DNA from: an uncultured archaeon
Lineage (GTDB): Archaea; Thermoproteota; Nitrososphaeria; Nitrososphaerales; Gagatemarchaeaceae
Direction: 5' to 3'
Length of the DNA: 64,000 nt
Assembly: GCA_963817525.1 (NCBI GenBank)
Contig: CAWFOU010000008.1
Coordinates: forward strand, 32,001 to 96,000
Positions 14,933-27,859 of the stretch are shown here, one piece after another. The notes beneath the pieces were generated by a model. The model had not been told where the DNA came from. It saw only the letters and a program-made list of their open reading frames with translations, and made no database searches. The position numbers were made by a program, and so were the translations under genes. Within the stretch, counting starts at the first letter, position 1. Each line of letters opens with the position of its first letter.

Positions 14933-17059
14933 TCAGGCGGGTTGACGAGAGGGTGGGGAGACCTCCTCGACAGCGTGCAGCGGATGGACGACCTTCAGGC
15001 CCAGGCCGTCGGAGATCTGCATCGAGCAGACGCTGCTCTCGGTTGCCACCAGCTTGCGCCCGCTCTCCCTGAAGAGGCGGAAGAGGTGGTCCCCGACCTG
15101 CATCGAGAGGTTGTATCCCAGGTCGCCGTGCTTCATCCCGAAGGTCCCCGCCATCCCGCAGCAGGTGCCGTTCTCGACTACCTGGACCTTGTAGCCCGCA
15201 GCGATGAGGAAGTCGATGGCCGGCCTCCCTCCCGACACCGACCGCTCGTGGCAGGGGATGTGGAAGCCTATGGCTTCCTCCGTGGGATACGCTGGCTTCA
15301 GCTGGAGGCTGGCGAGCCTGGGCTGCACGAACCCGAAGAACGGGAAGCTCATCTCGCGCGACCTCTCCGCGAGCTCGCCGGGGACGAGTGTGGGGTAGAC
15401 CTCCCTCAGCATGTAGACCGCCGTCGGCTCAGTGGAGACCACGGAGTACCCTTGGTCGAGGTACTTTCTCAGGGAGTCCAGGTTGCTCTTGGCGACTGAC
15501 GTGGCCTTGGAGAGGTTCCCGTAGGAGATGTAAGGCATCCCGCTCCACTTTAGGTTCGGGACCTCCACCTTGTAGCCCAGCGCGACGAGCATCCTCACCG
15601 CCCTGACCCCGAGCTGCGGGTCGTTGTAGTCGGCGTAGACGTCGGGGAAGAAGACCACCTTCCCAGCTTCCCCGGTCCCGTTGCCGAGGGGCTTGAGCCT
15701 CGCCCTGAGCCTCTTCCTCGAGAAGGCTGGCAGCGTCCGCCTCTTGTCCACGCCGACCAGCGACTCCATCACGGCCCTGGTCGCCCCCCGTCGCAGGAGC
15801 CAGTTCGAGGCGGGGGCGGTCGCGCTCGCGACCTTGGCCAGGGTCTCCGAGGCCATGAAGAAGTCGTTGACGAGGAGCTGGCCGTTCTCGTCGACGTCCT
15901 CCTCCTTCACCTTGGCGATCATCATGGGGATGTTGATGTCGACGGGGCAGATCTCCTTGCAGAGCCCGCACGAGACGCAAAGGTGCGCGAACGCGGCCTT
16001 GTCCAGCCCGTGCACCTCGGCCGTCCAGGGGATCCCGATGGGGCCCGGGTAGATGTACCCGAAGGTGTGGCCTCCCGCGATTCCGTAGGTGGGGCAGACG
16101 TTCATGCACGCCCCGCACCTGATGCAGTTCAGGGCCTCGGAGAACCAGGGGTCGTCCCTCATCGCCGACCTGCCGTTGTCCAGGATGATTACGTGGTACT
16201 CCCTCCCCTCAGTGGAGCCCGCGAGGGGGCCGTGCTGGGTGATCACCGAGACGTAGACCGTCATGTTCTGGCCGGTGGCGCTCGCGCTATGCCCCTTCAC
16301 GAGGTAGGCGGCGTCGGTCCACTTGGGGACTATCTTCTCCATCCCGATTAACACCAGGTGGATCTTCGGGAGGCTGGTGACCAGCCTGCCGTTGCCCTCG
16401 TTCGTCTCTATCACTATCGAACCCGTCTCGGCCACCCCGATGTTGGCCCCGGAGACCCCGATGTCGGCCGTGAGGAAGAGCTGGCGCAGGTAGGCCCTCA
16501 CGGCCTCCAGGATGGGCTGGTCCTCGGGAGGTATCTCCCTGCCGACGGCCTTTGAGACGAGCTCGGCGATCTCCTTCACCGACTTGTGCGCCGCCGGCAT
16601 CACGAGGTGCACCGGGGTCTCCCCCGCGACTTGGATGATCAGCTCCCCGAGGTCGGTCTCGACCGACCGTATCCCGACCTTGTCCAGCTCGTGGGTGAAC
16701 TCTATCTCGTCCGACGTGAGGGACTTGGCCTTTACTATCAGCTTCGCGTCGACCCTCTTGGAGAGCTCCTCGACGTAGCGCATAGCGTCGGCACCGGTCT
16801 TGGCGAGGAAGACCTGTCCGCCGTTCTTCCGGACGTTCTCGGCGAACTCCTCGACGAGCCGCGGGTTCGCGACCGCTCTAGTCTTCAGGGCCTTGTTCGA
16901 CTCCTTGATGGCGTGGATGTCGAGCTGCTTCTCCTTGGCGAGGAGGGCCGCCCTGTTTGCCCTGGCCTTTGTCATCGAGTTCCAGAACTTCTCCGAGGAC
17001 TCCTTGTCGTTGAGCGAGCGCTTGAGCTTGTCAAGCAGCGCCTGCCTGCTGCTGGTCAT
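14933..17059 (-). CDS. LutB/LldF-type LUD-domain Fe-S protein fused to GlpC-like CCG domains
   Basis: ETDLGELIIQ, PVHLVMPAAH, TNEGNG, CIRCGACMNVCP, CVSCGLCKEICP, CCGMAGTFG. Confidence 0.85.
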   Translation of the reverse strand: MTSSRQALLDKLKRSLNDKESSEKFWNSMTKARANRAALLAKEKQLDIHAIKESNKALKTRAVANPRLVEEFAENVRKNGGQVFLAKTGADAMRYVEELSKRVDAKLIVKAKSLTSDEIEFTHELDKVGIRSVETDLGELIIQVAGETPVHLVMPAAHKSVKEIAELVSKAVGREIPPEDQPILEAVRAYLRQLFLTADIGVSGANIGVAETGSIVIETNEGNGRLVTSLPKIHLVLIGMEKIVPKWTDAAYLVKGHSASATGQNMTVYVSVITQHGPLAGSTEGREYHVIILDNGRSAMRDDPWFSEALNCIRCGACMNVCPTYGIAGGHTFGYIYPGPIGIPWTAEVHGLDKAAFAHLCVSCGLCKEICPVDINIPMMIAKVKEEDVDENGQLLVNDFFMASETLAKVASATAPASNWLLRRGATRAVMESLVGVDKRRTLPAFSRKRLRARLKPLGNGTGEAGKVVFFPDVYADYNDPQLGVRAVRMLVALGYKVEVPNLKWSGMPYISYGNLSKATSVAKSNLDSLRKYLDQGYSVVSTEPTAVYMLREVYPTLVPGELAERSREMSFPFFGFVQPRLASLQLKPAYPTEEAIGFHIPCHERSVSGGRPAIDFLIAAGYKVQVVENGTCCGMAGTFGMKHGDLGYNLSMQVGDHLFRLFRESGRKLVATESSVCSMQISDGLGLKVVHPLHAVEEVSPPSRQPA

Positions 17060-17685
17060 CTCCCCCCTGCCCCCCCTTGCCAGTCGAGGATGATGGCGTG
17101 GATCGTGTGAGGCCCGTGCACACCGTAGAGGAGCCTCATCTCGATGTCCCCAGTCTTGCTCGGGCCTGAGATGAAGGAGACGATGGGCTTCCTGGAGCCG
17201 GGCGACGCCTTGACCAGCTCCCCGACCATTGGGAGCGCCTCGGCGAGGTCTCGGAGGATGCTGGAGCGCTCCAGCAGCGCGACGTGGATTATCGGGAGCG
17301 AGGAGGCGAGCTTTGCCGAGTCATCGTAGACCACCTCGAGCATGGCCCCCTCGAGCGCCACCCCGTTGACGGCCCACGTCACCCCGGCGTCAGCGGCGGC
17401 GAGCACCCCGACCGCCTCGCTGGGCCGCCCGTTCTGGAGGTCTTCGACGTAGTCCGCCTTCAGGCCGGTGAGCGCGGCGCCGACCGCCTCGGCGTATTGG
17501 GGTGGCACCCCCGCCACCACGACGGACTTGCAGCCCGCCTTTGACAGGATGGTGCGCAGCGCCTCGGCGGTCTCGGCCTCGTCCTTGGCCATGTGGGGCT
17601 CGACGTGAAGGTCCCGCAGAGAGCTAAGAAACTTCTGGACGACCTCGGCCGCGGGTCCGCTCTGCGCCCCGGTTGGTCTCTCCAT
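17056..17685 (-). CDS. LutC/YkgG LUD-domain protein
   Basis: ISGPSKTGDIEMRLLYGVHGP signature; ATGA overlap with the downstream LutB-like gene. Confidence 0.88.
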   Translation of the reverse strand: MERPTGAQSGPAAEVVQKFLSSLRDLHVEPHMAKDEAETAEALRTILSKAGCKSVVVAGVPPQYAEAVGAALTGLKADYVEDLQNGRPSEAVGVLAAADAGVTWAVNGVALEGAMLEVVYDDSAKLASSLPIIHVALLERSSILRDLAEALPMVGELVKASPGSRKPIVSFISGPSKTGDIEMRLLYGVHGPHTIHAIILDWQGGAGGR

Positions 17686-17851
17686 TTGTTGGCGCACTCG
17701 CCGGCGCGCGGCGCTTTAAATGCGCCGCGGTCGAGCTTTCGGCAGGTGTCGTCCGGGCGTTTGAGGCTTCGTCGCAATATTCATAAACGCCGTGAAACGA
17801 CCGAATATTCTCGTGAGCAAGAGACTAAACACTCAGAAGTACGCTGTGAGC

Positions 17852-18409: not shown

Positions 18410-19093
18410 TTAGACGGTCAGCGAAGGCTTTTCCTTCTTCGCCTTGTTCCAGTCGTCGAGGAAGCGCTTGAGGCCGATGTCGGTCAGCGGGTGCAGGAAC
18501 ATCTTCTCCATGACGTCAGCAGGCATCGTGCCGATGTCAGCCCCCAGCTTGGCGGCCTCGAGCACGTGGATCGGGTGTCTGATGCTGGCCACTAGGATCT
18601 CGGTCTTGAACTTGTACGTCGGGCTGTTCTTTATCTCGACGAGGTCACTGATCAAGGCCATACCGTCTTGGCCGATGTCGTCCAGCCTGCCGATGAACGG
18701 GCTGATGTAGGACGCTCCGGCCTTCATGGCGATTAGCCCCTGGACGGCTGAGAAGATCAGCGTCACGTTGATCGGTATTCCCAGCGAGCTGAGGGTCTTC
18801 GTCGCCTTCATCCCCTCGGGGATCATCGGGATCTTTACGACCACGTTCTCCGCCCAGGACTTGTTGCGCTTGCCCTCCGCCACCATTCCATCGTAGTCGG
18901 TGGAGATGACCTCGGCGCTCACCGGGTGGGGGTAGACCTCCTTGGCGATGGCCTTGATGGTCTCCTCGAAGTCGGCGCCTTCCTTGACGATCAGCGAGGG
19001 GTTGGTCGTGATGCCGTCGACGAGGCCCATCGCGTTGTACTTCTTGATCGAAGCAAGGTTCGCAGTGTCGAGATAGAACTTCAATTCGAGCAC
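18410..19093 (-). CDS. tal: Transaldolase / fructose-6-phosphate aldolase family
   Basis: FYLDTAN, GITTNPSL, VVKIP (Schiff-base Lys), NVTLIFS, ISPFIGRLDD. Confidence 0.92.
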   Translation of the reverse strand: MLELKFYLDTANLASIKKYNAMGLVDGITTNPSLIVKEGADFEETIKAIAKEVYPHPVSAEVISTDYDGMVAEGKRNKSWAENVVVKIPMIPEGMKATKTLSSLGIPINVTLIFSAVQGLIAMKAGASYISPFIGRLDDIGQDGMALISDLVEIKNSPTYKFKTEILVASIRHPIHVLEAAKLGADIGTMPADVMEKMFLHPLTDIGLKRFLDDWNKAKKEKPSLTV

Positions 19094-19131
19094 ACTTCCC
19101 AGATTTTTCTAATAAAGCTATCGGCGTTCGG

Positions 19132-20091
19132 CTACCGCTTCATCGCGATGGCCTGTCGGGCGGCTTCCTCGATGTGGGCGGCTGTAAGGCCGTACTTGTT
19201 GAGGAGCTCCTGGGCCTCGCCGCTCTCGCCGAAGGTGTCGTTGACGCCCACCCTCTTGAGAGGTATCGGATACTGGTCGGTTAGGACCTCTGCGACAGCG
19301 GAGCCCATCCCTCCCATGACGTTGTGCTCCTCCGCGCTGACCGCCGCGCCGCACTTTCTCGCGTATTTTAGTATCGTCTCTTGGTCGATCGGCTTTACCG
19401 TGTGGATGTCGATCACGCTCGCCTGGATGCCCTTGGTCGCCAGCGACTCTGCCGCCCTCACCGCTTCCGGGAGCATTATGCCGCAGCCGAAGAGCGCGAC
19501 GTCGCTCCCCTCCCTGACGACGTTGGCCTGGCCTAGCTTGTACTCGAAGCCGCCCTCGTAGACGATGGGGGTGTTGGAGCCCTTGATCACTCCCCTGGTT
19601 ATCCTGACGTAGAACGGGCCGGGGATGTCCGCGATGGCCTTGATTATCGCTTTGACCGCGACGGCGTCCCCAGGGACGACGACGCGCATGTGGGGCACCA
19701 CCCTCATGAGGGCGATGTCCTCGACCTGCTCGTGCGAGCCTCCGTCAGGCCCGACGGTGATCCCTGCGTGAGAGCAAACCAGCTTGACGTCGAGGTCGGC
19801 ATAGCAAAGCATGTTTCGTATCTGGTCGACGCACTTGCCGGGAATGAAGATCGCGTAGGTCCCCGCGAAGGCGACCTTCCCCCCGAACGCGAGGCCCGCG
19901 GCCACACCGACGAGGTTCTGCTCGGCGATCCCGAGGTTGAAGAACCGGTCTGGGTACTTGGCCCCGAACATCCCCGACTTCATGGACTCTGTGGTGTCCG
20001 CTCCGAGCACGACGATGCGAGGGTTGCTCGCTCCTAGCTCTACCAGCGCTTCGCCGTAGGCGTTGCGCATCGCTCCCATCTTCTCTAGCAT
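19132..20091 (-). CDS. Transketolase C-terminal subunit
   Basis: FFNLGIAEQN, HAGITVGPDGGSHEQ, TVKPID, EEHNVMGG. Confidence 0.93.
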   Translation of the reverse strand: MLEKMGAMRNAYGEALVELGASNPRIVVLGADTTESMKSGMFGAKYPDRFFNLGIAEQNLVGVAAGLAFGGKVAFAGTYAIFIPGKCVDQIRNMLCYADLDVKLVCSHAGITVGPDGGSHEQVEDIALMRVVPHMRVVVPGDAVAVKAIIKAIADIPGPFYVRITRGVIKGSNTPIVYEGGFEYKLGQANVVREGSDVALFGCGIMLPEAVRAAESLATKGIQASVIDIHTVKPIDQETILKYARKCGAAVSAEEHNVMGGMGSAVAEVLTDQYPIPLKRVGVNDTFGESGEAQELLNKYGLTAAHIEEAARQAIAMKR

Positions 20092-20092
20092 C

Positions 20093-20815
20093 TTAAATCG
20101 CCCTCCCTCCGGCTTCCTGTCTGGCCTTTTCCCTGAGTAACCCGACCGCCTTTATCGGGTCGGGCTTGTAGTAGACTCCTGCTCCCGCGACCAGCACGTT
20201 ACCGCCGCGCTTCACCACGTGCCCCAGGGTCTCCAGCTCGACCCCGCCGTCTATCTCGATGTCGATGGGGAGGCCCTTGTCGTTGAGCATCTGGGTTATC
20301 TTCTCGAGCTTGGGCAGGACCTCCATTATCATGGTCTGCCCGCTGAAGCCCGGGTTGACGGTCATCACGCACAGCGTGTCGAGCTTGTCCAGCCTCTGCT
20401 CGACCCAAGCTGGCATGTCGGTGGCGGGTTTGAGGGCGAGCCCCATCACCTTGCCCTTCGCGTGGACCTTGGAGTAGATCGCGTCGAAGCGCTCGCCCGT
20501 GAGCGCCTCCGCGTGGAAGCAGAAAAGGTCCGAGCCGGCGTCCAGGAACTTGTCGACGAACTTCTCCGGCTCGTCGATCATCAGGTGGGTGTCGAACTTC
20601 ATGTCGGTCTTCTTCCTCAGGGCCTTTACCGTGCCAGGCCCGAAGGTGATGTTGGGCGCGAAGTGGCCGTCAATCACGTCGAGGTGCACCTGGTCAGCCC
20701 CGCCCTTGACCGCGACCTCGAGCGCGGCAGCGAAGTTGGACTGGTCCCCGCCCAGGATGGAGGGGGCAATCTTGATCTTCCGCTTTATCGTCTCGAGTGG
20801 CATCGTCTTTTCCAC
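20093..20815 (-). CDS. rpe: Ribulose-5-phosphate 3-epimerase
   Basis: IAPSIL, HLDVIDGHFAPNITFG, DTHLM, MTVNPGFSGQ, IEIDGG. Confidence 0.95.
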   Translation of the reverse strand: MEKTMPLETIKRKIKIAPSILGGDQSNFAAALEVAVKGGADQVHLDVIDGHFAPNITFGPGTVKALRKKTDMKFDTHLMIDEPEKFVDKFLDAGSDLFCFHAEALTGERFDAIYSKVHAKGKVMGLALKPATDMPAWVEQRLDKLDTLCVMTVNPGFSGQTMIMEVLPKLEKITQMLNDKGLPIDIEIDGGVELETLGHVVKRGGNVLVAGAGVYYKPDPIKAVGLLREKARQEAGGRAI

Positions 20816-21640
20816 CTACTTCAGCTCCTTGTAGATGTCTTCCATCTTTTCCTTGGTGGGCGCCGTGCCGTGGTAGGTGGGCGACCACTCCATGAAAGAG
20901 ATGCCCTTGCCCTTTACGGTGTGGGCGATGATCATCGTGGGCCTGTTCTTCACCATCTCCGCCGTGTCGAAGGCCTCTATCAGCTGCAGATAGTCGTAGC
21001 CGTCGACCTCTATGACGTTCCAGTTGAAGGCGCGCCACTTGGCCGCAAGCGGCTCGAGAGGCATGATCTGCTCGGTGAGGCCGTCCTGCTGGATGCCGTT
21101 CCTGTCGATCATGCCCACGAGGTTGTCGAGCTTGAACTTCGAGGCCGACATCGCAGCCTCCCAGACCTCGCCCTCGCCCTGCTCCCCGTCTCCCATCAGG
21201 ACGTAGGTCCTGGTGGGCCTCCCGTCGAGCCTCGCCGCGAGGGACTGTCCCACTCCCACGGAGAGCCCGATCCCCTCGGAGCCCGCGGGCATCTCAACCC
21301 CGGGGATGTCCATGTCTGGGTGCCCTTGGAGGAGCGCCCCGAGCTTCCTCAGGGACTTTAGTTCGGACATGGGGAAGTATCCGGCCTGCCCGAGGATAGA
21401 GTAGAGCAGCGGGGCCCCGTGTCCCTTGCTGAGGATGAACCTGTCCCTGTCAGGCCACTTTGGGTTCTTGGGGTCGTGCCTGAGCTTGTAGAAGTACAGG
21501 GTGACCAGAAGCTCCACCGCGGAGAGGGAGCCTCCCGGGTGCCCTGATCCTGCCTCCGCGAGGGTCTCCAATATCACCTTGCGGGTGTTGCGCGAGATGT
21601 CCTGAAGCCTAGTGATTTCCTGCGAAGTAGCCATTCCCAT
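20816..21640 (-). CDS. Transketolase N-terminal (TPP-binding) subunit
   Basis: GSGHPGGSLS, DRFILSKGH, LQGHP, MGDGEQGEG..WEA, HTVKGKG. Confidence 0.94.
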   Translation of the reverse strand: MGMATSQEITRLQDISRNTRKVILETLAEAGSGHPGGSLSAVELLVTLYFYKLRHDPKNPKWPDRDRFILSKGHGAPLLYSILGQAGYFPMSELKSLRKLGALLQGHPDMDIPGVEMPAGSEGIGLSVGVGQSLAARLDGRPTRTYVLMGDGEQGEGEVWEAAMSASKFKLDNLVGMIDRNGIQQDGLTEQIMPLEPLAAKWRAFNWNVIEVDGYDYLQLIEAFDTAEMVKNRPTMIIAHTVKGKGISFMEWSPTYHGTAPTKEKMEDIYKELK

Positions 21641-21642
21641 CT

Positions 21643-22689
21643 CTATCGCCTCACCGGCATCTGGGAGACGCGGCTGAGGAAGTCACCCATCGACTCTAGC
21701 CGTTTTTCCAAGTCCTCTATCGTCAGCGTCGACGTCCTGGGCTTCTCGCTCCGGACCGTCCCCGCGATGTTGCTGAGGCAGGCGGCCTCCGTCGCCGTGC
21801 CCCCTGCGGCCACCGCGAGGGAGAAGACCCCGGTCATAACGTCCCTCACGCCGACCTTGTTGAAGAAGCTCTTCCTGCCGAATGGGAGCGGAAGCGTGGT
21901 TATCTGGTCGCGGTCGAAGACGGTCATCCCCTCCTCTCCGCGCGTGATCACGATCCCCTTGCAATCGAGCCTCCCCAAGAGGTTCACGCCCATGTTCCTG
22001 AGGCTGGTCTCGTTCACCATCGCCATCTGGGTGGCGTGGGTGGCCTCGCTGAGGTTCGACTTTAGGTAAGTCACGCCGCTGTAGTCCATGTAGTGCCTGT
22101 CCTTCGGCTGGGCGACCACGATCTTGCCCGCCTTCCTGGCGGCCGCGACCACGGAGCTGATTAGCGAGGAGGTGACGACTCCCCTGTCGTAGTCCGAAAA
22201 GACCACCGTGTCCACGTTGGGGATCTTTCCCTCGGCCGCCGTGGCCAGGGACTTCGTTATCGGGAGCGCGACCTCCTTCCTGACCTCCTGGTCGATGCGC
22301 AGATAGTGCAGCCTGTTGACCATGATCCACGTACGGAGAGAGCTGGGCCTGGTCTTGTCGACCACGATCCCCTCCACGCTGACCCCGTTCCTTGCGAGGT
22401 CATCCTTCAGCCAGACGCCATAGTTGTCGTCGCCGACCATCCCTATGACGGAGACCTGCCCGCCGAGCGACGCGACCTCGTTGGCCAGGTTGGCAGCCCC
22501 GCCGGGGAGAAGCGTCTCGCCGACATAGTCTGCCGCAGGCACAGGGGCTTCTCGCGCGAGCTTCCTCGCCGAGACCTCCACGAACCTGCTCACGAGGAAG
22601 TCGCCGAGGACTAGCATGCGGCTGCCTTGGAATTTCTTGAGGAGTCCGTTCAATCCTTCATAGGAAAGACCCGGCAAGTCCTGAACCAC
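21643..22689 (-). CDS. PfkB-family sugar kinase related to the HldE/RfaE heptose-7-phosphate kinase domain (divergent)
   Basis: VLGD..REAPVP, GGAANLA, SDYDRG, SNLSEA, ITRGEEGM; the anion-hole motif reads KVGVRD instead of VTGAGD. Confidence 0.8.
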   Translation of the reverse strand: MVQDLPGLSYEGLNGLLKKFQGSRMLVLGDFLVSRFVEVSARKLAREAPVPAADYVGETLLPGGAANLANEVASLGGQVSVIGMVGDDNYGVWLKDDLARNGVSVEGIVVDKTRPSSLRTWIMVNRLHYLRIDQEVRKEVALPITKSLATAAEGKIPNVDTVVFSDYDRGVVTSSLISSVVAAARKAGKIVVAQPKDRHYMDYSGVTYLKSNLSEATHATQMAMVNETSLRNMGVNLLGRLDCKGIVITRGEEGMTVFDRDQITTLPLPFGRKSFFNKVGVRDVMTGVFSLAVAAGGTATEAACLSNIAGTVRSEKPRTSTLTIEDLEKRLESMGDFLSRVSQMPVRR

Positions 22690-22834
22690 GGGGCGCCAAA
22701 TTGCAGGCCTGTTTTAAGCTTAACGAAGCGGAGCCCTGCCAGCCGCGTCCCTCCGCGGGACTCTGTCTTTTTTTGGCCCGCTGAATTGGTTCGACTGCTG
22801 TCGTTTGTCGGACGTTTCAAATCGCTTCACGACG

Positions 22835-22850
22835 ATGAAAACATAAATAA
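22835..22850 (+). promoter_or_regulatory. Putative BRE/TATA element for rbcL
   Basis: Purine-rich ATGAAAA followed by ATAAATAA about 30 nt upstream of ATG 22879, in the divergent kinase/rbcL intergenic region. Confidence 0.35.
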
Positions 22851-22878
22851 CCTATGACGCGACGAAAAAAGGGTTTAC

Positions 22879-24306
22879 ATGACAACAGAAGCCATGGTTG
22901 AAAGGAGATGGAGCGCCCCGAGCGTAGAGCACGACAGAGGGGACATATTCTCCACCACTCCCGACAAGGTAGACGTCGACAAGAACGTTCTGGCGACATT
23001 TTTCATCACGTGCGACCCTAGGGTCACCATCGACCAGGCCGGAGTCATCATCGCGGCGGAGCAGTCCGTAGGCACGTTCACGGACGTCTCTACGGCGACG
23101 GACCTCTCCACGAAGACAGCGGCCAAGATGTACTCTTACAAGTACGAAGACCCGTCAGGCGCGATGAAGCACTCGGGCTGGGTCAAGGTCGCGTTCCCGA
23201 CCTTCCTCCTCGACCTGGACAACAGGGGGATCCCCGACCTGTTCACCTTCGTGACAGGAAACTGGATGGGTTTCACCCCGATTCCAAACTGCAAGTGGAT
23301 AGATTTCACCCTCCCCAAGGACGTCTTGAAGCTCTTCAAAGGGCCAAAGTTTGGCGTCGAGGGCCTGAGGGAGATCGTCGGCACAACGAAGAGCCGGCGC
23401 CCCCACGTGGGGATCACAATCAAGCCCAAGATGGGCGTGACCGACCAGGGAGCAGCCCAGCAGTTCTACGACGCAGCGATGGGCGGCGTCGACACCTTCA
23501 AGGACGATGAGACCTACTTCAACCAATGGTGCTCGCCGCTCCTCGACAGGGTCGCCAAGGTCTACGAGGCGCTCGACAAAGCCAAGTCGGAGGGCGCCCA
23601 CCCAGGGGGCGAGTACATGTACGCGCCTCAGGTCACGGTGGACTCTGAAAAGTCGCTCGAGGTCGCGGACAAGATGATCGCGCACGGTGCCAGGGGCCTG
23701 ATGCTCAACATCATGGCGGCCTGGTACCCCGCGCTAAGGGCCCTCGCGGAGGACCCGAGCATCAACGTCCCGATCCACCTCCACAGGGCGTCGCACGCCT
23801 CCCTCACCCGCCACCCGAGGCATGGGATCAGCTTCAAGGTCATCGCCGGGCTGGGCAGGGTCGCTGGCGGGGACATGATCCACGTAGGGACCGCCAGAGG
23901 CAAGCTGGGAGACGCGATAAAGTTCGTCGAGATCCCCGAGATCATGGACGAGATGCAGCGCCCGAACGGGCACCTAAAGCCCATGATGGGCGTCGCCTCG
24001 GGAGGGCTCACGCCGAACAACTACCATTACTCCATAGACTTGATGGGCTTGGACATCCAGCTCCAGAACGGGGGCGCGGTCCACGGGCACCCGTGGGGCA
24101 CCAAGGCGGGCGCTACCGCTGCTAGGCAGGCAGTCGATGCGTACATGAAGAAGATCCCCCTTGAGGAGTACGCCAAGACCCACGCAGAGCTAGAGGCCTC
24201 TCTCCAGTTCTTCGGGCAAAAGTACGCCGTCGCGTCCGCGATGACCGTCGTACCAGAGCTCGGCAAGAAGGAGAGCGACTATAAGCACATGTTCCGCTCG
24301 GAGTAG
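22879..24306 (+). CDS. rbcL: Ribulose-1,5-bisphosphate carboxylase large subunit, form III-like
   Basis: Catalytic residues retained: AAEQSVGT (E60), GN (N123), IKPK (K175/K177), GGVDTFKDDE (K201/D203/E204), HLHRA (H294/R295), IHVGT (H327), GKL (K334), ASGG (S379), GG..GHP. Confidence 0.92.
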   Translation: MTTEAMVERRWSAPSVEHDRGDIFSTTPDKVDVDKNVLATFFITCDPRVTIDQAGVIIAAEQSVGTFTDVSTATDLSTKTAAKMYSYKYEDPSGAMKHSGWVKVAFPTFLLDLDNRGIPDLFTFVTGNWMGFTPIPNCKWIDFTLPKDVLKLFKGPKFGVEGLREIVGTTKSRRPHVGITIKPKMGVTDQGAAQQFYDAAMGGVDTFKDDETYFNQWCSPLLDRVAKVYEALDKAKSEGAHPGGEYMYAPQVTVDSEKSLEVADKMIAHGARGLMLNIMAAWYPALRALAEDPSINVPIHLHRASHASLTRHPRHGISFKVIAGLGRVAGGDMIHVGTARGKLGDAIKFVEIPEIMDEMQRPNGHLKPMMGVASGGLTPNNYHYSIDLMGLDIQLQNGGAVHGHPWGTKAGATAARQAVDAYMKKIPLEEYAKTHAELEASLQFFGQKYAVASAMTVVPELGKKESDYKHMFRSE

Positions 24307-24322
24307 AAAAGGGGCGATAAGA

Positions 24323-24493
24323 ATGAAGAACCACACAAAGGGCGACATCTTCTGCGAGTGCGGCGCGTGCCCCCACGACAACGCGCTCCAGTGCGCGGAC
24401 TATGGGTGCACCTGCTGCATCGCGGGGATGTCGGGCAAGCCGTACGAGCTCCACTACCTCAAGAGCGTCGGCCCGCCCGCCACCAACTTCTGA
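24323..24493 (+). CDS. 56-aa Cys-rich microprotein
   Basis: Manual translation MKNHTKGDIFCECGACPHDNALQCADYGCTCCIAGMSGKPYELHYLKSVGPPATNF; 7 Cys, strong G/C third-position bias, 16 nt after the rbcL stop; below the ORF-track cutoff. Confidence 0.7.
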   Translation: MKNHTKGDIFCECGACPHDNALQCADYGCTCCIAGMSGKPYELHYLKSVGPPATNF

Positions 24494-24679
24494 GACGTAC
24501 CGAATCGGGCCCAGTCTGGGCTCTCCTTCTCCATTTTTTAGAATCCCAATCAGATGCCGTGCTGGACCTTCGTAGAAAGTCGCCTGCTTTGCAAAGCCAC
24601 CGAAGGCGGTCGCACACGGGACAGAGCCCCGGCTACGGGCTGAGAAACAGGTGCGCCTGCTTCGGCTGCGAGGGGGGCG

Positions 24680-25573
24680 CTACTTCTTCTTGATCGCTTC
24701 CGCGATGACCGGCGCCACGCTCACGAAGCTTATCGGCCCCGCGAAGGTGTCGGTCCCTACCACGCCCTCTATGTTGTTGCTGTACATCAGTGGGAGGGCG
24801 TTGAGGCTGAGCACTGGGTGGGTGCACCCCACGTAGATCTTGCGAGCCCCCGCCTTCTTGACGAGGTTCGCTGCCTCCACGATGGTGTTGCCCGTGCTGA
24901 TGATGTCGTCGATGATTATGGCGTCCCTGCCCTTGACGTTGACGCCTTCGCCGCCCCTGACCTTGACTTTGACCTCGGTCGAGGAGAACCTCGTCTTCTG
25001 GAGGATCGCGTAGTCGGTCTTAATCTTCGCGGCGGCCACCTTCGCCCACTGCTCGGACTCGTCGTCGGGGCCGATGATTATCGCGTTCTTCGGCGTGAAT
25101 ATCCTGTTGATGTATTCGGCGATGTATGGGACCGCGGTGAGGTTGGTCGCGGGGATCTTGAACACTTCCTTGAGGGACGGGACCCTCTGGAGGTGGACGT
25201 CGATTGTGAATATCCTGCTAGGGCCTGCCTGCTCGAGGAGCTTGGCCACGAGGTGGAAGCTCAGCGGCTCTCCTGGGTGGAACCTGGCGTCTTGCCTTGC
25301 GTAGGCAAAGTACGGGATGACGACGCTTATCGACTTGGGGCTCGCGCTCTTGAACGCGTCCATGGTGAGCAGGTACTCCATGATGAGCTCGTCCGGCCTA
25401 CCCCCTAGCGGGTGGATGTAGACGATGTCCTGACCCTTTATGTCTTCTTCGATCTTGAGGTACTGCTCGCCGTCCGGGAACCTTTGTCTCTTGACCTTGC
25501 CAAGCTTCGCTCCGGTTAGGAGCGACGTCCTGACTGCTAGGGTCTCGCCTGCCGAACCTCCAAAGATTATCAT
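24680..25573 (-). CDS. prs: Ribose-phosphate pyrophosphokinase (PRPP synthetase)
   Basis: FPDGE, IPYFAYARQD, IGPDD, IIIDDIISTGNT. Confidence 0.95.
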   Translation of the reverse strand: MIIFGGSAGETLAVRTSLLTGAKLGKVKRQRFPDGEQYLKIEEDIKGQDIVYIHPLGGRPDELIMEYLLTMDAFKSASPKSISVVIPYFAYARQDARFHPGEPLSFHLVAKLLEQAGPSRIFTIDVHLQRVPSLKEVFKIPATNLTAVPYIAEYINRIFTPKNAIIIGPDDESEQWAKVAAAKIKTDYAILQKTRFSSTEVKVKVRGGEGVNVKGRDAIIIDDIISTGNTIVEAANLVKKAGARKIYVGCTHPVLSLNALPLMYSNNIEGVVGTDTFAGPISFVSVAPVIAEAIKKK

Positions 25574-25589
25574 TTTTACTCGTTCTCGC

Positions 25590-26639
25590 TTAACGGGCGC
25601 CGGATTTCGCCTGGGCGCCTTCGGTGTACTGGTAGAGCTCCTTCATCAGCGAGAAGACCGCTCCGGGCGGCACGATGCCCTTCTCGGTGACGTAGAAGTC
25701 GATGTATTCCGGTGGGGTGACGTCGAAGACAGGGTTGCTGAACTTCACCTTGGGGTTGTTCGCGCTCCATTCCTTCGAGGCGATCTCCGTGTAATCCCTC
25801 TCCTCGATGTCTACCAATTCGCCGTTCAAGGTCTTGAAATCGAGCTTATAAGTTTCAGCGGCCACGATGAAGTTTACCCGCGCCTCGTGTGCCATCGTCG
25901 CGACCTGCGAGGTCCCGATCTTGTTCACCAAGGCCCCGTTCACCGCTATCGCGTCGCAGCCTACCACGGCCTTGTCGGCGTGTGCCATGTTCACCCTGCA
26001 GGCAGAGTCGCAGATGAGGGTGGTGTCGATCCCATAGGCCGCGAGGGCCGCCGCGGTCTTGTGGCCCTGGAACTTGGGCCTCGTCTCGTCGCAGAACACC
26101 TTGATGCCCTTGCCCATGTCGTAGGCCTTCTTCAGGATGCTCATGGCGGCTTCGCTGTTGCAGTGGGTGATGATGATGTCGCCGTTCTTGACCCGCCTTG
26201 CTCCTATCTCTCCGATGAGCTTTACGGCCTCCACGCTGGAGATGAGGAAGTCGTTCGCGGTGTTCACGGTCGCGTTCCTGATCTCCTCGACCGTGGCTCC
26301 CGACTCGAAGGAGGTCCTGCCTCCATAGAGCACGTAGTTCACGCCGTTGGGGAGGGAGACGGCGGTGGGCCTAGCAGACCTGAGCTTCTCACCGGCCTTT
26401 AGGACGAGGGCCCAGTATTCCCTGGAGTTCTTGGCCTTGGCCTCCTTCGCGTAGTCCCTGAGTGCCTGTGCGGCGTACCTCGCGATGCGGCCCGCACCGT
26501 GGACTCGCATGGACTTTAGGTTGTCATAGGCTTCGTCTACGGTGACTTTCTGGAATTCTTCCTTGCCTTCCTTTAGTGTCTCCACGTGAACCGTTTCGCC
26601 TTCATGGGAGCTTATATATGTATTACCCGCGAAATTCAT
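25590..26639 (-). CDS. Ribose-1,5-bisphosphate isomerase (eIF-2B family)
   Basis: GAGRIA, RPTAVSLPN, THCNS (catalytic Cys), ETRPKFQG, GCDAI (catalytic Asp), NKIGT, NPVFDVTP; closer to R15Pi than to MtnA (lacks HCN.G.LAT). Confidence 0.85.
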   Translation of the reverse strand: MNFAGNTYISSHEGETVHVETLKEGKEEFQKVTVDEAYDNLKSMRVHGAGRIARYAAQALRDYAKEAKAKNSREYWALVLKAGEKLRSARPTAVSLPNGVNYVLYGGRTSFESGATVEEIRNATVNTANDFLISSVEAVKLIGEIGARRVKNGDIIITHCNSEAAMSILKKAYDMGKGIKVFCDETRPKFQGHKTAAALAAYGIDTTLICDSACRVNMAHADKAVVGCDAIAVNGALVNKIGTSQVATMAHEARVNFIVAAETYKLDFKTLNGELVDIEERDYTEIASKEWSANNPKVKFSNPVFDVTPPEYIDFYVTEKGIVPPGAVFSLMKELYQYTEGAQAKSGAR

Positions 26640-26688
26640 GTCTTACTCGTCGGCGAGAAAATTCGTCTGTTGTCGTCGGCCAGACGAC

Positions 26689-27087
26689 TCAGCCGAGCGA
26701 TGAGACCTTCATTTCGACCTGGTCCCGGATCTTCCGGACCTGCTCGATCGTCTTCCCCTTCGGGTCCTCTATCTCCCAGTCGACGAGCTTCTTCTGCATC
26801 TTGGCGAGCATCGGCTTGGGGCAGACCTCCTCCACCGAGCAGCCCATGGTGAAGACGTGGGTCGCATGGTTGATCATCTCGGTGGTAAGGAGCTTGGGCT
26901 TGGCCGAGGACACGTCGATCCCCTTCTCCAGCATCGCCTTGACCACGGTGGGGTTGACGGCTTCGGTGGGCATCGTCCCCGCGCTGGTCGCAATCAGGCC
27001 CCGCTTCTTCGCGAAGGCCTCTGCCATCTGGCTCCTGCCCGCGTTGTGGACGCACACGAAGAGGTAAGAGCCCTCAGACCTTGGCAT
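26689..27087 (-). CDS. arsC: Arsenate reductase, LMW-PTP (thioredoxin-coupled) type
   Basis: FVCVHNAGRSQMAE P-loop, MGCSVEEVCP resolving cysteines, WEIEDP. Confidence 0.88.
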   Translation of the reverse strand: MPRSEGSYLFVCVHNAGRSQMAEAFAKKRGLIATSAGTMPTEAVNPTVVKAMLEKGIDVSSAKPKLLTTEMINHATHVFTMGCSVEEVCPKPMLAKMQKKLVDWEIEDPKGKTIEQVRKIRDQVEMKVSSLG

Positions 27088-27859
27088 GCTTTCTCCTCCA
27101 GACACCGAATAATAAACCAGCAAGCCCTGCGCCGACCAGTGGACCTATCAGATAGATCAGCAGGTTCCCGAGATATCCCGAGGACAACGCAGGACCTAGG
27201 CTTCTGGCGGGATTGAAAGAGGCCCCCGTGAGCGGACCGATCGCAAGGATCAGGACGAACAGCGTCGCGCCCACCAGGAGAGCCTGGGCCGCGGCCCTCT
27301 TGAGGAAGTGCGAGGCGGTGAGAGCGGCGGCCGCGAGGACGAAGGTGCCCGCCACTTCGAGGGAGACGCCTTCGGCCTGGGAGATCCCGAACCCGAGCTT
27401 CGTCGACCCCAGGGACGCGTTGGATGCCATGCCGCTGAAGATCGCCTTGAGGGTAAGGCCTGCCGAGAGCGCGCCGAGAAGCTGGAAGAAGACGTAGGGG
27501 AAGACAAGCTCCTTCTTGAGCTTCCCCGAGAGTGCGCTCGCGAATGTTATCGCCGGATTGATGTGCGCGCCGGAGTGCTTCCCTATGAGGAGGATCATCG
27601 CGCCAACGGTAAGACCGAAGACCAGGGCGACCGTCGCCAGTTGCTCGAACGACGAGAGGTGAGGAACCAAGGGAACGAGCACGACCGAACCGGCGCCGAA
27701 GAATACGAGGAGATAGGTTCCCAGCATCTCGGACAGGCAGCGTCGGCGAAAGTCCGACACCGCCAGCGGGGCTCCCTTCCCTAGCGAAGGGTTCAGGCTC
27801 GGCCCTGCCCCTGAACGGTCGGCGGGGGGCGGATGCAGCAACGACACGTGCGACAACAA
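27074..27859 (-). CDS. MIP family channel (aquaporin/aquaglyceroporin)
   Basis: SGAHINPA and ASFNPARSLGP; true start probably internal. Confidence 0.9.
   Translation of the reverse strand: MLSHVSLLHPPPADRSGAGPSLNPSLGKGAPLAVSDFRRRCLSEMLGTYLLVFFGAGSVVLVPLVPHLSSFEQLATVALVFGLTVGAMILLIGKHSGAHINPAITFASALSGKLKKELVFPYVFFQLLGALSAGLTLKAIFSGMASNASLGSTKLGFGISQAEGVSLEVAGTFVLAAAALTASHFLKRAAAQALLVGATLFVLILAIGPLTGASFNPARSLGPALSSGYLGNLLIYLIGPLVGAGLAGLLFGVWRRKHAKV

What the first reader, a model, noticed from the sequence alone, without database searches (positions are those of the whole stretch)
18410..26639. Form III RuBisCO clustered with non-oxidative pentose-phosphate genes, R15P isomerase, Prs and an HldE-like kinase: candidate PRK-independent Calvin-type cycle
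Seen: kinase-tktN-rpe-tktC-tal form a tightly spaced operon transcribed divergently from rbcL, and R15Pi-prs converge on rbcL. Neither AMP phosphorylase (DeoA) nor phosphoribulokinase is in the window. Known: archaeal form III RuBisCO usually works in nucleotide salvage (AMP phosphorylase, R15Pi, RuBisCO). Transketolase, transaldolase and Rpe are the regeneration enzymes of the transaldolase variant of the CBB cycle, which normally needs PRK. Inference: pentose phosphates made by Tkt/Tal/Rpe could be converted to RuBP without PRK, either via ribose-5-P to R15P (by the kinase or via PRPP) and R15Pi, or by the kinase acting directly on Ru5P. That would give a cyclic or anaplerotic CO2-incorporating route sharing one divergent control region. 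Rpi is not in the cluster and would have to be encoded elsewhere.
Basis: partly seen in the sequence, partly recalled or inferred. Interest (0 to 1): 0.88.

Follow-up and report, generated by a model that had tools for sequence, protein, structure and literature searches.

The report
RuBisCO module beside pentose-phosphate operon
A soil archaeon keeps the CO2-fixing enzyme RuBisCO and two helper genes right next to its sugar-phosphate shuffling genes, which fits an already published but still untested idea of how RuBisCO can be fed without the usual kinase.

Summary
The genome belongs with Group I.1c Thaumarchaeota MAGs. No PRK was found in 23 genus genomes and no AMP phosphorylase in 97 family genomes.

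The locus is two units:
- **PPP operon.** Kinase-tktN-rpe-tktC-tal is old and housekeeping. The kinase is in 82 of 97 family genomes and in two RuBisCO-less sister families.
- **RuBisCO module.** It comprises rbcL, a 56-aa Cys-rich ORF, prs and R15P isomerase. It is found in only 8 of 97 genomes, and its parts are always inherited together.

The best reading is a route from R5P through PRPP and R15P to RuBP, ending in two 3-PGA. It would run as a CO2-incorporating shunt fed by the neighbouring PPP.

The HldE-like kinase is not RuBisCO-linked. A closed cycle is doubtful because no dedicated FBPase was found.

The pathway idea and the rbcL-prs-R15Pi adjacency are already in print. The PRPP-to-R15P step has no assigned enzyme.

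The parts
18410..19093 (-). Transaldolase (short TalC/MipB type), last gene of the PPP operon
   Evidence: TAL_FSA 192 bits and TIGR00875 289 bits. The best solved relative is T. maritima transaldolase 1vpx at 263 bits. The protein has Phe in the 'SPFiGR' stretch, where the F-to-Y variant chain in the same PDB list has Tyr.
19132..20091 (-). Transketolase C-terminal half (pyrimidine-binding plus C-terminal domains)
   Evidence: Transket_pyr 131 bits and Transketolase_C 116 bits.
20093..20815 (-). Ribulose-phosphate 3-epimerase
   Evidence: Ribul_P_3_epim 199 bits; NF004076 202.5 bits, cut-off 165.
20816..21640 (-). Transketolase N-terminal half (ThDP-binding)
   Evidence: Transketolase_N 184 bits.
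21643..22689 (-). HldE/HldA-like PfkB kinase of unknown substrate; first gene of the PPP operon and not specific to RuBisCO
   Evidence: rfaE_dom_I 225.6 bits, below its cut-off of 345. Best solved structure is HldA 4e84 at 107 bits. The motif G-[VI]-R-D stands where HldA has GAGD, and it is kept in 9 of 9 orthologs aligned. The kinase is in 82 of 97 family genomes. The operon is conserved in RuBisCO-less families.
22712..22723 (-). TATA-like box (TTAAGCTTAAAA on the minus strand) 23-34 nt upstream of the kinase start
   Evidence: Invariant in 5 of 5 aligned intergenic regions. The reading as a promoter is inference.
22790..22804 (+). Conserved box TTCGACTNNTGNCGT about 75-90 nt upstream of the rbcL start
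   Evidence: Exact match upstream of rbcL in 6 of 6 independent rbcL-bearing sequences: the window (seen again in its own-genome loci L002 and L132), L004, L005, L006, L007 and L028. It follows rbcL in the inverted L005. No match in any of the 138 other loci held at that point, including rbcL-less L008-L017.
22843..22850 (+). TATA-like box ATAAATAA about 30 nt upstream of the rbcL ATG
   Evidence: Invariant core in 5 of 5 aligned regions. The reading as a promoter is inference.
22879..24306 (+). Divergent form III RuBisCO large subunit
   Evidence: Both RuBisCO domains are present. The catalytic Lys, Asp, Glu, His, Arg, Ser and Gly positions are invariant in a 22-sequence alignment. Best solved structure is P. 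horikoshii 2cwx at 223 bits. It forms a 100/100 clade with marine relatives on a long branch. It is the only RuBisCO in the genome.
24323..24493 (+). 56-aa Cys-rich ORF (7 Cys, 1 His) 17 nt after rbcL; travels with rbcL
   Evidence: 75-93% identical in L003-L006 with all Cys kept. It stays 3' of rbcL in the inverted L005. No Pfam family was found. Only 2 small relatives turned up among 1.84 billion representatives. It probably matches the 'hypothetical protein' listed between rbcL and prs in PMC10640624 Supplementary Data.
24680..25573 (-). Module-specific ribose-phosphate diphosphokinase (PRPP synthase), an extra paralog
   Evidence: TIGR01251 283 bits. The RQ, DxH, KxR and DD..G.T positions are invariant across its paralogs and relatives, and it aligns end to end with M. 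jannaschii Prs 1u9y. Orthologs occur only in the 8 rbcL+ genomes. The genome has two further Prs-family genes.
25590..26639 (-). Ribose-1,5-bisphosphate isomerase (e2b2 type)
   Evidence: TIGR00511 376.5 bits, cut-off 314. Orthologs occur only in the 8 rbcL+ genomes.

Best explanation
The locus joins two units with different histories.

**Unit 1: the PPP operon.** Kinase-tktN-rpe-tktC-tal is an ancestral, housekeeping non-oxidative pentose-phosphate operon of the non-ammonia-oxidising Nitrososphaerales.

**Unit 2: the RuBisCO module.** It comprises rbcL, a 56-aa Cys-rich ORF, prs and R15P isomerase. Its distribution is patchy and its parts are inherited together.

**Proposed route.** Together the two units most likely run an AMP-phosphorylase- and PRK-independent variant of the archaeal pentose-bisphosphate pathway.
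1. The PPP enzymes, with RpiA encoded elsewhere, supply ribose-5-phosphate.
2. The module Prs makes PRPP from R5P and ATP.
3. PRPP loses a phosphate to give ribose-1,5-bisphosphate. This is the unassigned step. It could be spontaneous or carried out by one of the 12 Nudix-type proteins or another phosphatase.
4. R15P isomerase makes RuBP.
5. RuBisCO adds CO2 to give two 3-phosphoglycerate.

**Basis.** Steps 1, 2, 4 and 5 rest on homology with conserved catalytic residues. Step 3, and the flux through the route, are inference.

**Likely role.** I read the route as a CO2-incorporating shunt from the pentose-phosphate pool into lower glycolysis in an aerobic heterotroph or mixotroph. I do not read it as a closed autotrophic cycle. 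The HldE-like kinase belongs to the PPP operon and is not needed for this route.
For: **Gene identity.** All eight genes are identified. RbcL keeps every catalytic position. Prs keeps its catalytic motifs. R15Pi scores above its equivalog cut-off.

**Co-inheritance.** rbcL, prs and R15Pi orthologs occur in the same 8 of 23 genus genomes and in no other. The module Prs is 28-33% identical to the housekeeping Prs.

**Independent recurrence**
- G005, from another genus, has rbcL-prs-R15Pi on one strand. Its RbcL is 32% and its Prs 35% identical to the window's.
- Locus tags in PMC10640624 Supplementary Data place prs and R15Pi side by side in marine MAGs, with rbcL 5-6 genes away.
- That spacing fits the order rpe, tkt, tal, SDR, rbcL seen in marine contig L030.

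**Usual routes not found.** AMP phosphorylase was found in 0 of 97 family genomes and PRK in 0 of 23 genus genomes. The own genome agrees.

**Positional analogy.** In canonical operons of the same class, AMP phosphorylase sits next to R15Pi-rbcL (L147, L149; L093).

**Supporting genes.** RpiA is present. Nudix candidates are present: 12 matches, 11 over the cut-off.

**Against a closed cycle.** FBPase_3 was not found in this genome. Class I FBPase was over the cut-off in 0 of 8 rbcL+ genomes against 11 of 15 rbcL- genomes. GlpX was found in 0 of 23.

**Weak hint of expression.** Contigs of a wetland metatranscriptome run, from a relative about 90-94% identical, cover all of rbcL in a 1631-nt contig. 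They also cover parts of tal, tktC, rpe and the kinase, the prs/R15Pi junction, and R15Pi. DNA carry-over in that library cannot be excluded.
Against: - No enzyme for PRPP to R15P was identified. No Nudix or phosphatase gene is part of the module.
- The neighbouring LMW-phosphatase-family gene is an ArsC-type arsenate reductase. Its orthologs lie elsewhere in rbcL-less genomes.
- A prs homolog was found next to rbcL in 0 of 80 metagenome loci. The two close relatives among them end inside rbcL and could not have shown one. Among the family's other RuBisCO type, prs is adjacent in 1 of 5 loci.
- The 8 rbcL+ genomes form one subclade, so co-inheritance may amount to a single event.
- PRPP synthesis costs two ATP equivalents per RuBP.
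- Nucleoside phosphorylases (MTAP and a second PNP_UDP_1 protein) and other PfkB kinases are present, so an R1P-kinase route is not excluded.
- An IMPase-family protein could supply FBPase activity.
- PGK, GAPDH, TPI and FBP aldolase were not searched.
- No raw-read RNA data were available. The genome is a MAG with 8.75% contamination.
Confidence: 0.55

Rival explanations
1. Closed PRK-independent Calvin-type cycle, as proposed by the first reader and by Reji and Francis. The same enzymes, together with gluconeogenesis, regenerate pentose phosphates from 3-PGA, giving net autotrophic or strongly mixotrophic CO2 fixation.
For: - Tkt, Tal, Rpe, RpiA, Prs, R15Pi and RbcL are all present, most of them in one cluster.
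- PPP genes are clustered with this RbcL clade in both the soil and the marine lineage.
- The proposal is in print for marine relatives.
- An IMPase-family protein could act as an FBPase.
Against: - No FBP aldolase/phosphatase, class I FBPase or GlpX was found in this genome.
- rbcL+ genomes lack the class I FBPase that 11 of 15 rbcL-less congeners carry.
- Each RuBP costs two ATP equivalents.
- The family is described as organoheterotrophic in passages of PMC10640624.
- No energy source for autotrophy was examined here.
Confidence: 0.15
2. Nucleoside salvage through ribose-1-phosphate. Nucleoside phosphorylases release R1P, a PfkB kinase (the operon kinase or the C1:391711 paralog) makes R15P, and R15Pi and RuBisCO follow, as in the Thermococcus pentose-bisphosphate pathway. 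On this view the prs adjacency serves nucleotide synthesis and not RuBP supply.
For: - MTAP and a second PNP_UDP_1 protein are present.
- Three PfkB-family loci are present.
- The R1P-kinase route is the known alternative entry to this pathway (recalled; only the abstract start of PMC9700705 was seen).
Against: - The operon kinase scores 32.8 bits on the ATP-dependent R1P kinase model, whose cut-off is 330.
- The kinase is kept in lineages without R15Pi or RuBisCO.
- prs is strictly co-inherited with rbcL and R15Pi, and the arrangement recurs in G005 and in marine MAGs.
Confidence: 0.15
3. The HldE-like kinase itself makes the RuBisCO substrate or its precursor. It would do so by C1 phosphorylation of R5P to give R15P, or of Ru5P to give RuBP, acting as a non-homologous replacement for PRK.
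For: - Its closest characterised relatives phosphorylate the anomeric C1 of a sugar phosphate, in the HldA/HldE family.
- It lies divergently next to rbcL in 7 of 8 rbcL+ genomes and co-directionally in the eighth.
- Its unusual G-[VI]-R-D motif suggests a changed substrate.
- No canonical heptose-pathway partners were found over their cut-offs.
Against: - The kinase was found in 82 of 97 family genomes and any RuBisCO in 14 of 97.
- The operon is kept in 10 of 10 rbcL-less loci. It is also kept in families f3 and f5, where the kinase is in 9 of 9 genomes and RuBisCO in 0 of 9.
- Of the 34 RuBisCO+ genomes in the 201-genome class sample, only this genome has an orthologous kinase. Two others give weak matches at 24-26% identity.
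- Marine relatives cluster rbcL with PPP genes but without this kinase.
Confidence: 0.07
4. The adjacency of the RuBisCO module and the PPP operon is an accident of genome rearrangement and carries no functional meaning.
For: - The two units have different distributions.
- The flanks differ between rbcL+ and rbcL- genomes of the same genus.
- Each unit has its own promoter-like elements.
Against: - The junction is kept in all 8 rbcL+ genomes, including one with rbcL inverted in place.
- A second lineage clusters a related rbcL with non-orthologous PPP genes, namely a full-length tkt and no kinase.
Confidence: 0.08

Closest known systems
PRPP-fed RuBisCO route proposed for marine pSL12-like / heterotrophic marine Thaumarchaeota (bioRxiv 10.1101/2019.12.22.886556, passages; PMC7300363, passages)
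   Same: - Divergent form III(-a-like) RuBisCO plus R15P isomerase, with no PRK and no AMP phosphorylase.
- Prs-made PRPP is proposed as the source of R15P.
- The non-oxidative PPP is proposed to close the loop.
- Key genes are reported as colocalised on contigs.
- The window RbcL is 73-74% identical to marine contigs and forms a 100/100 clade with them.
   Different: - Here the PPP genes are the split archaeal tkt type and are led by an HldE-like kinase. The marine contig has a full-length bacterial-type tkt and no kinase.
- Here prs is an extra paralog restricted to the rbcL+ genomes.
- A 56-aa Cys-rich ORF follows rbcL here. tblastn did not find it in the marine contigs.
- Neither case has been tested experimentally, as far as the passages I read show.
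rbcL-R15Pi-prs adjacency in three topsoil Gagatemarchaeaceae MAGs (PMC10640624, passages; Supplementary Data passages)
   Same: It is the same family and very likely the same clade. AcS1-13 and palsa_1368 are among the relatives found here. The three genes are adjacent and absent from the rest of the family.
   Different: - The main text has no occurrence of 'transketolase'.
- In the passages I saw, neither the neighbouring PPP operon and kinase nor the missing AMP phosphorylase and PRK are discussed.
[quoted passage not shown]
Archaeal AMP / pentose-bisphosphate pathway of Thermococcus kodakarensis (AMP phosphorylase or R1P kinase, then R15P isomerase, then RuBisCO; recalled, summarised)
   Same: The last two steps, R15Pi and form III RuBisCO, are the same. 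So is the habit of clustering R15Pi with rbcL, seen in 41 of 80 metagenome loci.
   Different: The entry enzyme differs. AMP phosphorylase is not found here, and Prs takes its place next to R15Pi. Canonical AMPpase-R15Pi-rbcL operons do exist in another family of the same class.
PRPP to R15P to RuBP conversion reported in Methanocaldococcus jannaschii extracts (Finn and Tabita 2004; recalled, and cited in the text as abiotic dephosphorylation of PRPP)
   Same: The chemical route is the same: R5P to PRPP to R15P to RuBP.
   Different: That work concerned extracts of a methanogen, and no gene cluster was tied to it. Here the genes are physically linked and inherited together.
Transaldolase variant of the Calvin cycle with form III RuBisCO in Thermodesulfobium acidiphilum (Frolov et al. 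2019; recalled, not read here)
   Same: Form III RuBisCO together with Tkt, Tal and Rpe.
   Different: That cycle uses PRK. No PRK-family protein was found here, and no dedicated FBPase was found.
HldA/HldE D-glycero-beta-D-manno-heptose-7-phosphate kinase
   Same: It is the best family match and the best solved structure for the operon kinase. The GG and NxxE motifs and the catalytic Asp are kept.
   Different: - The kinase scores below the equivalog cut-off.
- G-[VI]-R-D replaces GAGD.
- No GmhA or heptose adenylyltransferase was found over its cut-off. The domain-II-like hit lies beside a riboflavin kinase gene and looks like RibL.
- The kinase always heads a tkt-rpe-tkt-tal operon.

Membership tests
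RuBisCO, bona fide carboxylase (form III) | Large-subunit N- and C-terminal domains | tested here: met
   PF02788 56 bits and PF00016 172 bits, both over their cut-offs.
RuBisCO, bona fide carboxylase (form III) | Catalytic and RuBP-binding residues (spinach numbering recalled: E60, T65, N123, K175, K177, K201, D203, E204, H294, R295, H327, K334, S379, G380/381, G403/404) | tested here: met
   Window positions E61, T66, K182, K184, K208, D210, E211, H302, R303, H335, K342, S374-G376 and G398-G399 are invariant in 22 sequences. N128 is nearly invariant. The alignment to 2cwx agrees.
RuBisCO, bona fide carboxylase (form III) | Reaches the curated type III equivalog score | tested here: not met
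   TIGR03326 scores 284.6 bits against a cut-off of 497.45. This is a divergent clade. The marine relative scores 277.8 bits.
RuBisCO, bona fide carboxylase (form III) | Phylogenetic placement inside form III rather than forms I, II or IV | tested here: inconclusive
   The tree of 29 archaeal sequences places it in a 100/100 clade with marine relatives, nested among form III-type sequences. No form I, II or IV outgroups were included. Published trees call the marine relatives divergent form III-a.
Archaeal AMP / pentose-bisphosphate pathway | R15P isomerase (e2b2) | tested here: met
   TIGR00511 scores 376.5 bits against a cut-off of 314.1.
Archaeal AMP / pentose-bisphosphate pathway | AMP phosphorylase | tested here: not met
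   The only weak hit is TrpD. tblastn with the L093 AMP phosphorylase found nothing. None was found in 97 family genomes.
Archaeal AMP / pentose-bisphosphate pathway | Ribose-1-phosphate kinase as the alternative entry | tested here: inconclusive
   The operon kinase scores 32.8 bits on NF053626, whose cut-off is 330. Other PfkB genes exist. No assay is possible with these tools.
Calvin-Benson-Bassham cycle (transaldolase variant) | Phosphoribulokinase | tested here: not met
   No PF00485 match in the own genome or in any of 23 genus genomes. The control search rings in 11 of 14 reference genomes.
Calvin-Benson-Bassham cycle (transaldolase variant) | Transketolase, transaldolase, Rpe and Rpi | tested here: met
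   Shown, and for RpiA.
Calvin-Benson-Bassham cycle (transaldolase variant) | Fructose-1,6-bisphosphatase | tested here: inconclusive
   Class V (PF01950), class I (PF00316) and class II (PF03320) were not found in this genome. One IMPase-family protein is present, and its FBPase activity is unknown.
Calvin-Benson-Bassham cycle (transaldolase variant) | PGK, GAPDH, TPI and FBP aldolase | not tested
HldE/HldA heptose-7-phosphate kinase | Reaches the curated equivalog score | tested here: not met
   TIGR02198 scores 225.6 bits against a cut-off of 345.
HldE/HldA heptose-7-phosphate kinase | GXGD anion-hole / catalytic-base motif of the ribokinase superfamily (motif recalled) | tested here: not met
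   HldA has GAGD and the window has GVRD. G-[VI]-R-D is found in 9 of 9 orthologs, and the catalytic Asp is kept.
HldE/HldA heptose-7-phosphate kinase | Pathway partners GmhA and heptose-1-phosphate adenylyltransferase in the genome | tested here: not met
   GmhA-like hit at 94 bits against a cut-off of 209. The domain-II-like hit scores 81 bits against a cut-off of 181 and lies beside a CTP-dependent riboflavin kinase gene, so it looks like RibL.
Ribose-phosphate diphosphokinase (PRPP synthase) | Family score and catalytic motifs | tested here: met
   TIGR01251 scores 283 bits against a cut-off of 113. The RQ, DxH, KxR and DD..G.T positions are invariant. It aligns full-length to the M. jannaschii enzyme 1u9y.

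The most novel reading that the evidence does not exclude
The cluster runs as a complete CO2-fixing cycle without PRK in acid-soil Thaumarchaeota. RuBP would be regenerated from PPP-derived ribose-5-phosphate. The regeneration would go either through the dedicated Prs paralog plus an unrecognised PRPP phosphohydrolase, or through the PPP-operon kinase acting as a sugar-phosphate C1 kinase that turns R5P into R15P. That kinase carries an atypical G-[VI]-R-D motif. The 56-aa Cys-rich protein encoded after rbcL would be a RuBisCO-specific accessory or a redox switch.
Probability: 0.12. Interest if true: 0.85.

Novelty: new member of a known kind. Interest (0 to 1): 0.48.

Why it matters
How archaea that carry form III RuBisCO but lack both PRK and AMP phosphorylase make RuBP is an open question. 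It was raised for methanogens and again for marine heterotrophic Thaumarchaea, whose RuBisCO is reported as highly expressed (passages).

This locus gives the most compact candidate set so far: RbcL, a 56-aa Cys-rich protein, a dedicated Prs paralog and R15P isomerase. All of them are inherited together and sit beside the PPP operon. The route can therefore be rebuilt from four or five proteins.

The work also removes a tempting wrong lead, the HldE-like kinase. It shows that the rbcL-bearing clade lacks the FBPase of its sister genomes. That shifts the expected role from autotrophy to a CO2-recapturing shunt in soil heterotrophs.

Tried and rejected
1. **ORF 26636-27055 (-) as a module member.** It is a wrong-frame artefact with an R/G/D-rich translation. 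The real gene is 26689-27123 (-), of the LMWPc family.
2. **That LMW-phosphatase-family gene as the missing PRPP phosphatase.** Rejected. It has the CX5R motif plus a two-Cys pattern and matches arsenate reductase models. It sits next to a MIP channel. Its orthologs (62-75% identity) lie elsewhere in rbcL-less genomes.
3. **ORF 24358-24693 (+, 111 aa) between rbcL and prs.** Wrong frame, with stops in the relatives. The conserved gene is the 56-aa ORF in another frame.
4. **A second copy of the rbcL-upstream box in front of R15Pi.** It lies at 26662-26676 with one mismatch. It is not kept in L003, L005 or L006, so it is no evidence for a shared regulon.
5. **Neighbourhoods of the second e2b2 copy, the two other Prs paralogs and the other PfkB gene.** NCBIfam gave nothing informative.
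6. **Flanks of the kinase operon in four rbcL-less loci.** No sugar transporter or catabolic partner was found. In two families the neighbour is ABCE1/RLI.
7. **ESM Atlas searches.** For the kinase it returned only PfkB and heptose-kinase-like clusters. For the small ORF no score reached 0.9.
8. **Literature search for HldA active-site residues.** No usable paper was found.
9. **tkt-tal within 5-7 kb of R15Pi-rbcL in seven distant metagenome loci.** In L093 the genes in between are unrelated and the operon is the canonical R15Pi-rbcL-AMPpase, so I did not count these as support.
10. **Sequencing runs.** Only one RNA run held a small share of the sequence. It is kept as contigs, so transcript ends, strand and level cannot be read. 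Stretches without cover in that run are not evidence.
12. **Complex prediction.** None was run for RbcL with the small protein, because neighbouring genes alone do not justify a job.

Full report
**What is there**

| Gene | Coordinates | Strand | Note |
|---|---|---|---|
| tal | 18410-19093 | - | |
| tktC | 19132-20091 | - | |
| rpe | 20093-20815 | - | |
| tktN | 20816-21640 | - | |
| PfkB kinase | 21643-22689 | - | nearest model is the HldE kinase domain, 225.6 bits, below its cut-off of 345 |
| rbcL | 22879-24306 | + | |
| prs | 24680-25573 | - | |
| R15P isomerase | 25590-26639 | - | 376.5 bits, above its cut-off of 314 |

- The five minus-strand genes from kinase to tal are separated by 2, 0, 1 and 38 nt.
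- The transaldolase is of the true transaldolase type. Its best solved relative is 1vpx, and it has Phe where the F-to-Y variant chain in the same PDB list has Tyr.
- RbcL keeps every catalytic and RuBP-binding position in a 22-sequence alignment. Its best structural relative is the Pyrococcus horikoshii form III enzyme.
- RbcL is nonetheless divergent, scoring 284.6 bits on the type III model against a cut-off of 497.

**Whose genome**

- The window is C8:32001-96000 of a 2.82-Mb, 15-contig assembly. Completeness is 95% and contamination 8.75%.
- The closest named records are Thaumarchaeota/Nitrososphaerales MAGs: AcS1-13, palsa_1368, MAS3.bin69 and SMAG_U15343.
- Two of these names appear among the three topsoil Gagatemarchaeaceae (Group I.1c) genomes in which Sheridan et al. 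noted rbcL, R15P isomerase and prs side by side (PMC10640624, passages; supplementary table passages).

**Missing enzymes**

- No PRK-family match was found in this genome or in any of the 23 genomes of the genus.
- The sole AMP-phosphorylase-like hit is TrpD.
- tblastn with a genuine AMP phosphorylase from locus L093 finds nothing.
- No AMP phosphorylase was found in 97 family genomes.
- RpiA is present elsewhere in the genome.

**Two units, not one**

*The kinase and PPP operon.*
- The kinase occurs in 82 of 97 family genomes, including 26 of 26 high-quality ones.
- This rbcL occurs in only 8 of 97, all in one genus. Six further genomes carry a different RuBisCO, 32-38% identical.
- In 10 of 10 sampled loci without this rbcL, the order kinase-tktN-rpe-tktC is kept. 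tal follows in 9 of them. In three of those it lies about 3 kb further on. The tenth contig ends before tal would appear.
- In a 201-genome sample of the class, kinase orthologs (36-42% identical) occur in families f3 (6 of 6) and f5 (3 of 3). They are essentially absent from f2 (1 weak hit in 131) and f4 (0 of 18).
- All 7 fetched f3 and f5 loci show the same five-gene operon.
- Those two families have no RuBisCO in the 9 genomes searched.
- Flanking genes in these lineages are housekeeping ones, such as ABCE1, and not sugar-uptake genes.
- The kinase is therefore a fixed partner of the PPP operon in non-ammonia-oxidising lineages, independent of RuBisCO.

*The kinase substrate is unknown.*
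- It carries G-[VI]-R-D where HldA has GAGD, in 9 of 9 orthologs.
- No canonical heptose-pathway partner reaches its cut-off in the genome.

**The RuBisCO module**

- Orthologs of the module prs (90-98% identical) and of R15Pi (86-91%) are found in exactly the 8 rbcL+ genomes. These are G000, G015, G017, G020, G022, G031, G033 and G034.
- The other genomes have only a housekeeping Prs, 28-33% identical, and an MtnA-like isomerase, 35-39% identical.
- This genome has three Prs-family genes and three IF-2B-family genes. All three Prs paralogs keep the catalytic motifs.
- A 56-aa ORF with 7 Cys and 1 His starts 17 nt after rbcL, at 24323-24493.
  - It is 75-93% identical in the four relatives that extend that far.
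  - It stays attached to rbcL in the one MAG where rbcL is inverted.
  - It has no Pfam family.
  - Only two small relatives exist among 1.84 billion representatives.

**Is the neighbourhood with the PPP operon meaningful?**

- Within the clade the junction is kept in all 8 genomes. Contig breaks interrupt it in G017 and G020, and rbcL is inverted in G015/L005.
- The nearest RbcL relatives outside the family are marine contigs L029 and L030, with 73-74% identity and 33% GC. They form a 100/100 clade with the window's protein in a tree of 29 sequences.
- In L030, rbcL is preceded by rpe, a full-length bacterial-type transketolase, tal and an SDR gene.
- In marine HMT and pSL12-like MAGs, the supplementary table of PMC10640624 gives prs and R15Pi consecutive locus tags, with rbcL 5-6 tags away. 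That spacing matches the four genes seen in L030.
- This last link is my inference from numbering. I did not see it in sequence, because both marine contigs end there.
- Two lineages thus cluster related rbcL genes with non-orthologous PPP genes. That argues for a pathway link between the PPP and RuBisCO. The kinase is not part of that link.

**Further contrasts**

- In other Nitrososphaeria, rbcL sits in canonical AMPpase-R15Pi-rbcL operons (L147, L149), as in L093.
- In another genus of this family, a form III-b-like rbcL is followed by prs and R15Pi on the same strand (G005). In four other loci of that type, only R15Pi is adjacent.
- Among 80 metagenome loci, 41 hold an R15Pi homolog and none holds a prs homolog. 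The two close relatives among them end inside rbcL.

**Regulation**

- The 189-bp divergent spacer holds one TATA-like box for each gene.
- It also holds a 15-nt box, TTCGACTNNTGNCGT. The box is exact upstream of rbcL in 6 of 6 independent rbcL-bearing sequences, including the inverted one, and matches none of the other loci held then, rbcL-less L008-L017 among them.
- This gives no support for a shared control region.
- Contigs of one wetland metatranscriptome run, from a 90-94% identical relative, cover rbcL completely. They also cover parts of the other genes. DNA in that library cannot be excluded, so this is only a hint.

**Cycle or shunt**

- The genome lacks FBP aldolase/phosphatase, class I FBPase and GlpX.
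- Class I FBPase is over its cut-off in 11 of 15 rbcL-less congeners and in 0 of 8 rbcL+ genomes. This may reflect a single event in related genomes.
- One IMPase-family gene remains as a possible FBPase.
- PGK, GAPDH, TPI and aldolase were not searched.
- I therefore favour a linear, CO2-incorporating exit from the pentose-phosphate pool to 3-PGA. The PRPP-to-R15P step is unassigned; 12 Nudix matches are candidates.
- The adjacent LMW-phosphatase-family gene is an arsenate reductase and is not tied to the module.

**What is known**

- The same PRK- and AMPase-free route was proposed for marine pSL12-like Thaumarchaeota. It runs from the PPP through R5P, PRPP, R15P and RuBP to 3-PGA, with optional closure by gluconeogenesis, and the genes were reported as colocalised on contigs.
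- The proposal was repeated for heterotrophic marine Thaumarchaea.
- The rbcL-R15Pi-prs adjacency in this soil family is published.
- My searches found no experimental test of the route and no paper on the HldE-like kinase of the PPP operon.
- The finding is therefore a further, well-clustered member of a known but unproven kind.

Noticed in passing
window 24323-24493 (+): A 56-aa ORF with 7 Cys and 1 His starts 17 nt after rbcL. It is conserved in four relatives and moves with rbcL in the inverted arrangement. It has no Pfam family, and only two small relatives turned up in a library of 1.84 billion representatives.
   Followed up: yes
window 21643-22689 (-), residues about 280-283: The PPP-operon kinase has G-V-R-D where HldA has GAGD. 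The Arg is kept in 9 of 9 orthologs from three families. A more distant kinase (L130, 30% identical) has GVGD.
   Followed up: partly
window 26689-27859 (-): A thioredoxin-type ArsC-like arsenate reductase (CX5R plus two further Cys) lies next to a MIP-family channel. This is probably an arsenic-resistance pair, and it is not tied to the RuBisCO module.
   Followed up: yes
genus-level searches (G015-G036): Class I FBPase (PF00316) is over its cut-off in 11 of 15 rbcL-less genomes of the genus and in none of the 8 rbcL+ genomes. GlpX was found in none of the 23.
   Followed up: partly
G000 C7:553628-554623 and C7:180293-181357: The genome holds a second e2b2-type isomerase, 67% identical to the module copy and also present in G030, G031 and G033. 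It also holds a third, longer Prs-like paralog of 354 aa, seen mainly in the rbcL+ genomes. Both keep their family motifs. Their neighbours gave no annotation.
   Followed up: partly
L139-L143 (G011, G058, G051, G079, G005): Six genomes of other genera in the family carry a different RuBisCO, 31-38% identical, and five of them were fetched as loci. The three that went into the tree group with a sequence labelled form III-b. In all five fetched loci an R15Pi lies beside it. In G005 the order is rbcL-prs-R15Pi on one strand, and the rbcL match there contains one TAG.
   Followed up: partly
L147, L149 (G294, G185; family f2, genus g24): Six of 16 genomes of one genus in the large f2 family have RuBisCO. 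Two fetched loci show the canonical AMP phosphorylase-R15Pi-rbcL operon.
   Followed up: partly
window 31175-34534 (-), 2006-3637 (-), 28219-29403 (+): Respiratory complex I genes carry inteins or homing-endonuclease domains. One is a 1119-aa NuoB-like ORF with Intein_splicing, LAGLIDADG and Hom_end domains. Another is a 543-aa 4Fe-4S ORF with a LAGLIDADG domain. A free-standing LAGLIDADG ORF lies between the MIP gene and nuoD, with weaker relatives near the PPP operon in other genomes (L012-L014).
   Followed up: no
G033:C7:178904-179945 and G029:C2:191116-192151: In two genomes the kinase gene is split into two pieces by a stop or frameshift. In G033 the module prs is also in two pieces. These are either assembly errors or decaying genes.
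   Followed up: no
window 14933-17697 (-): A LUD-domain pair resembling LutB/LutC lactate-utilisation genes lies downstream of the PPP operon, with 4Fe-4S and CCG domains. It is kept in L004, L006 and L007.
   Followed up: no
L008, L010 (G027, G069): An MMPL-family transporter gene lies inside or next to the PPP operon in some family members. In L008 it sits between tktC and tal.
   Followed up: no
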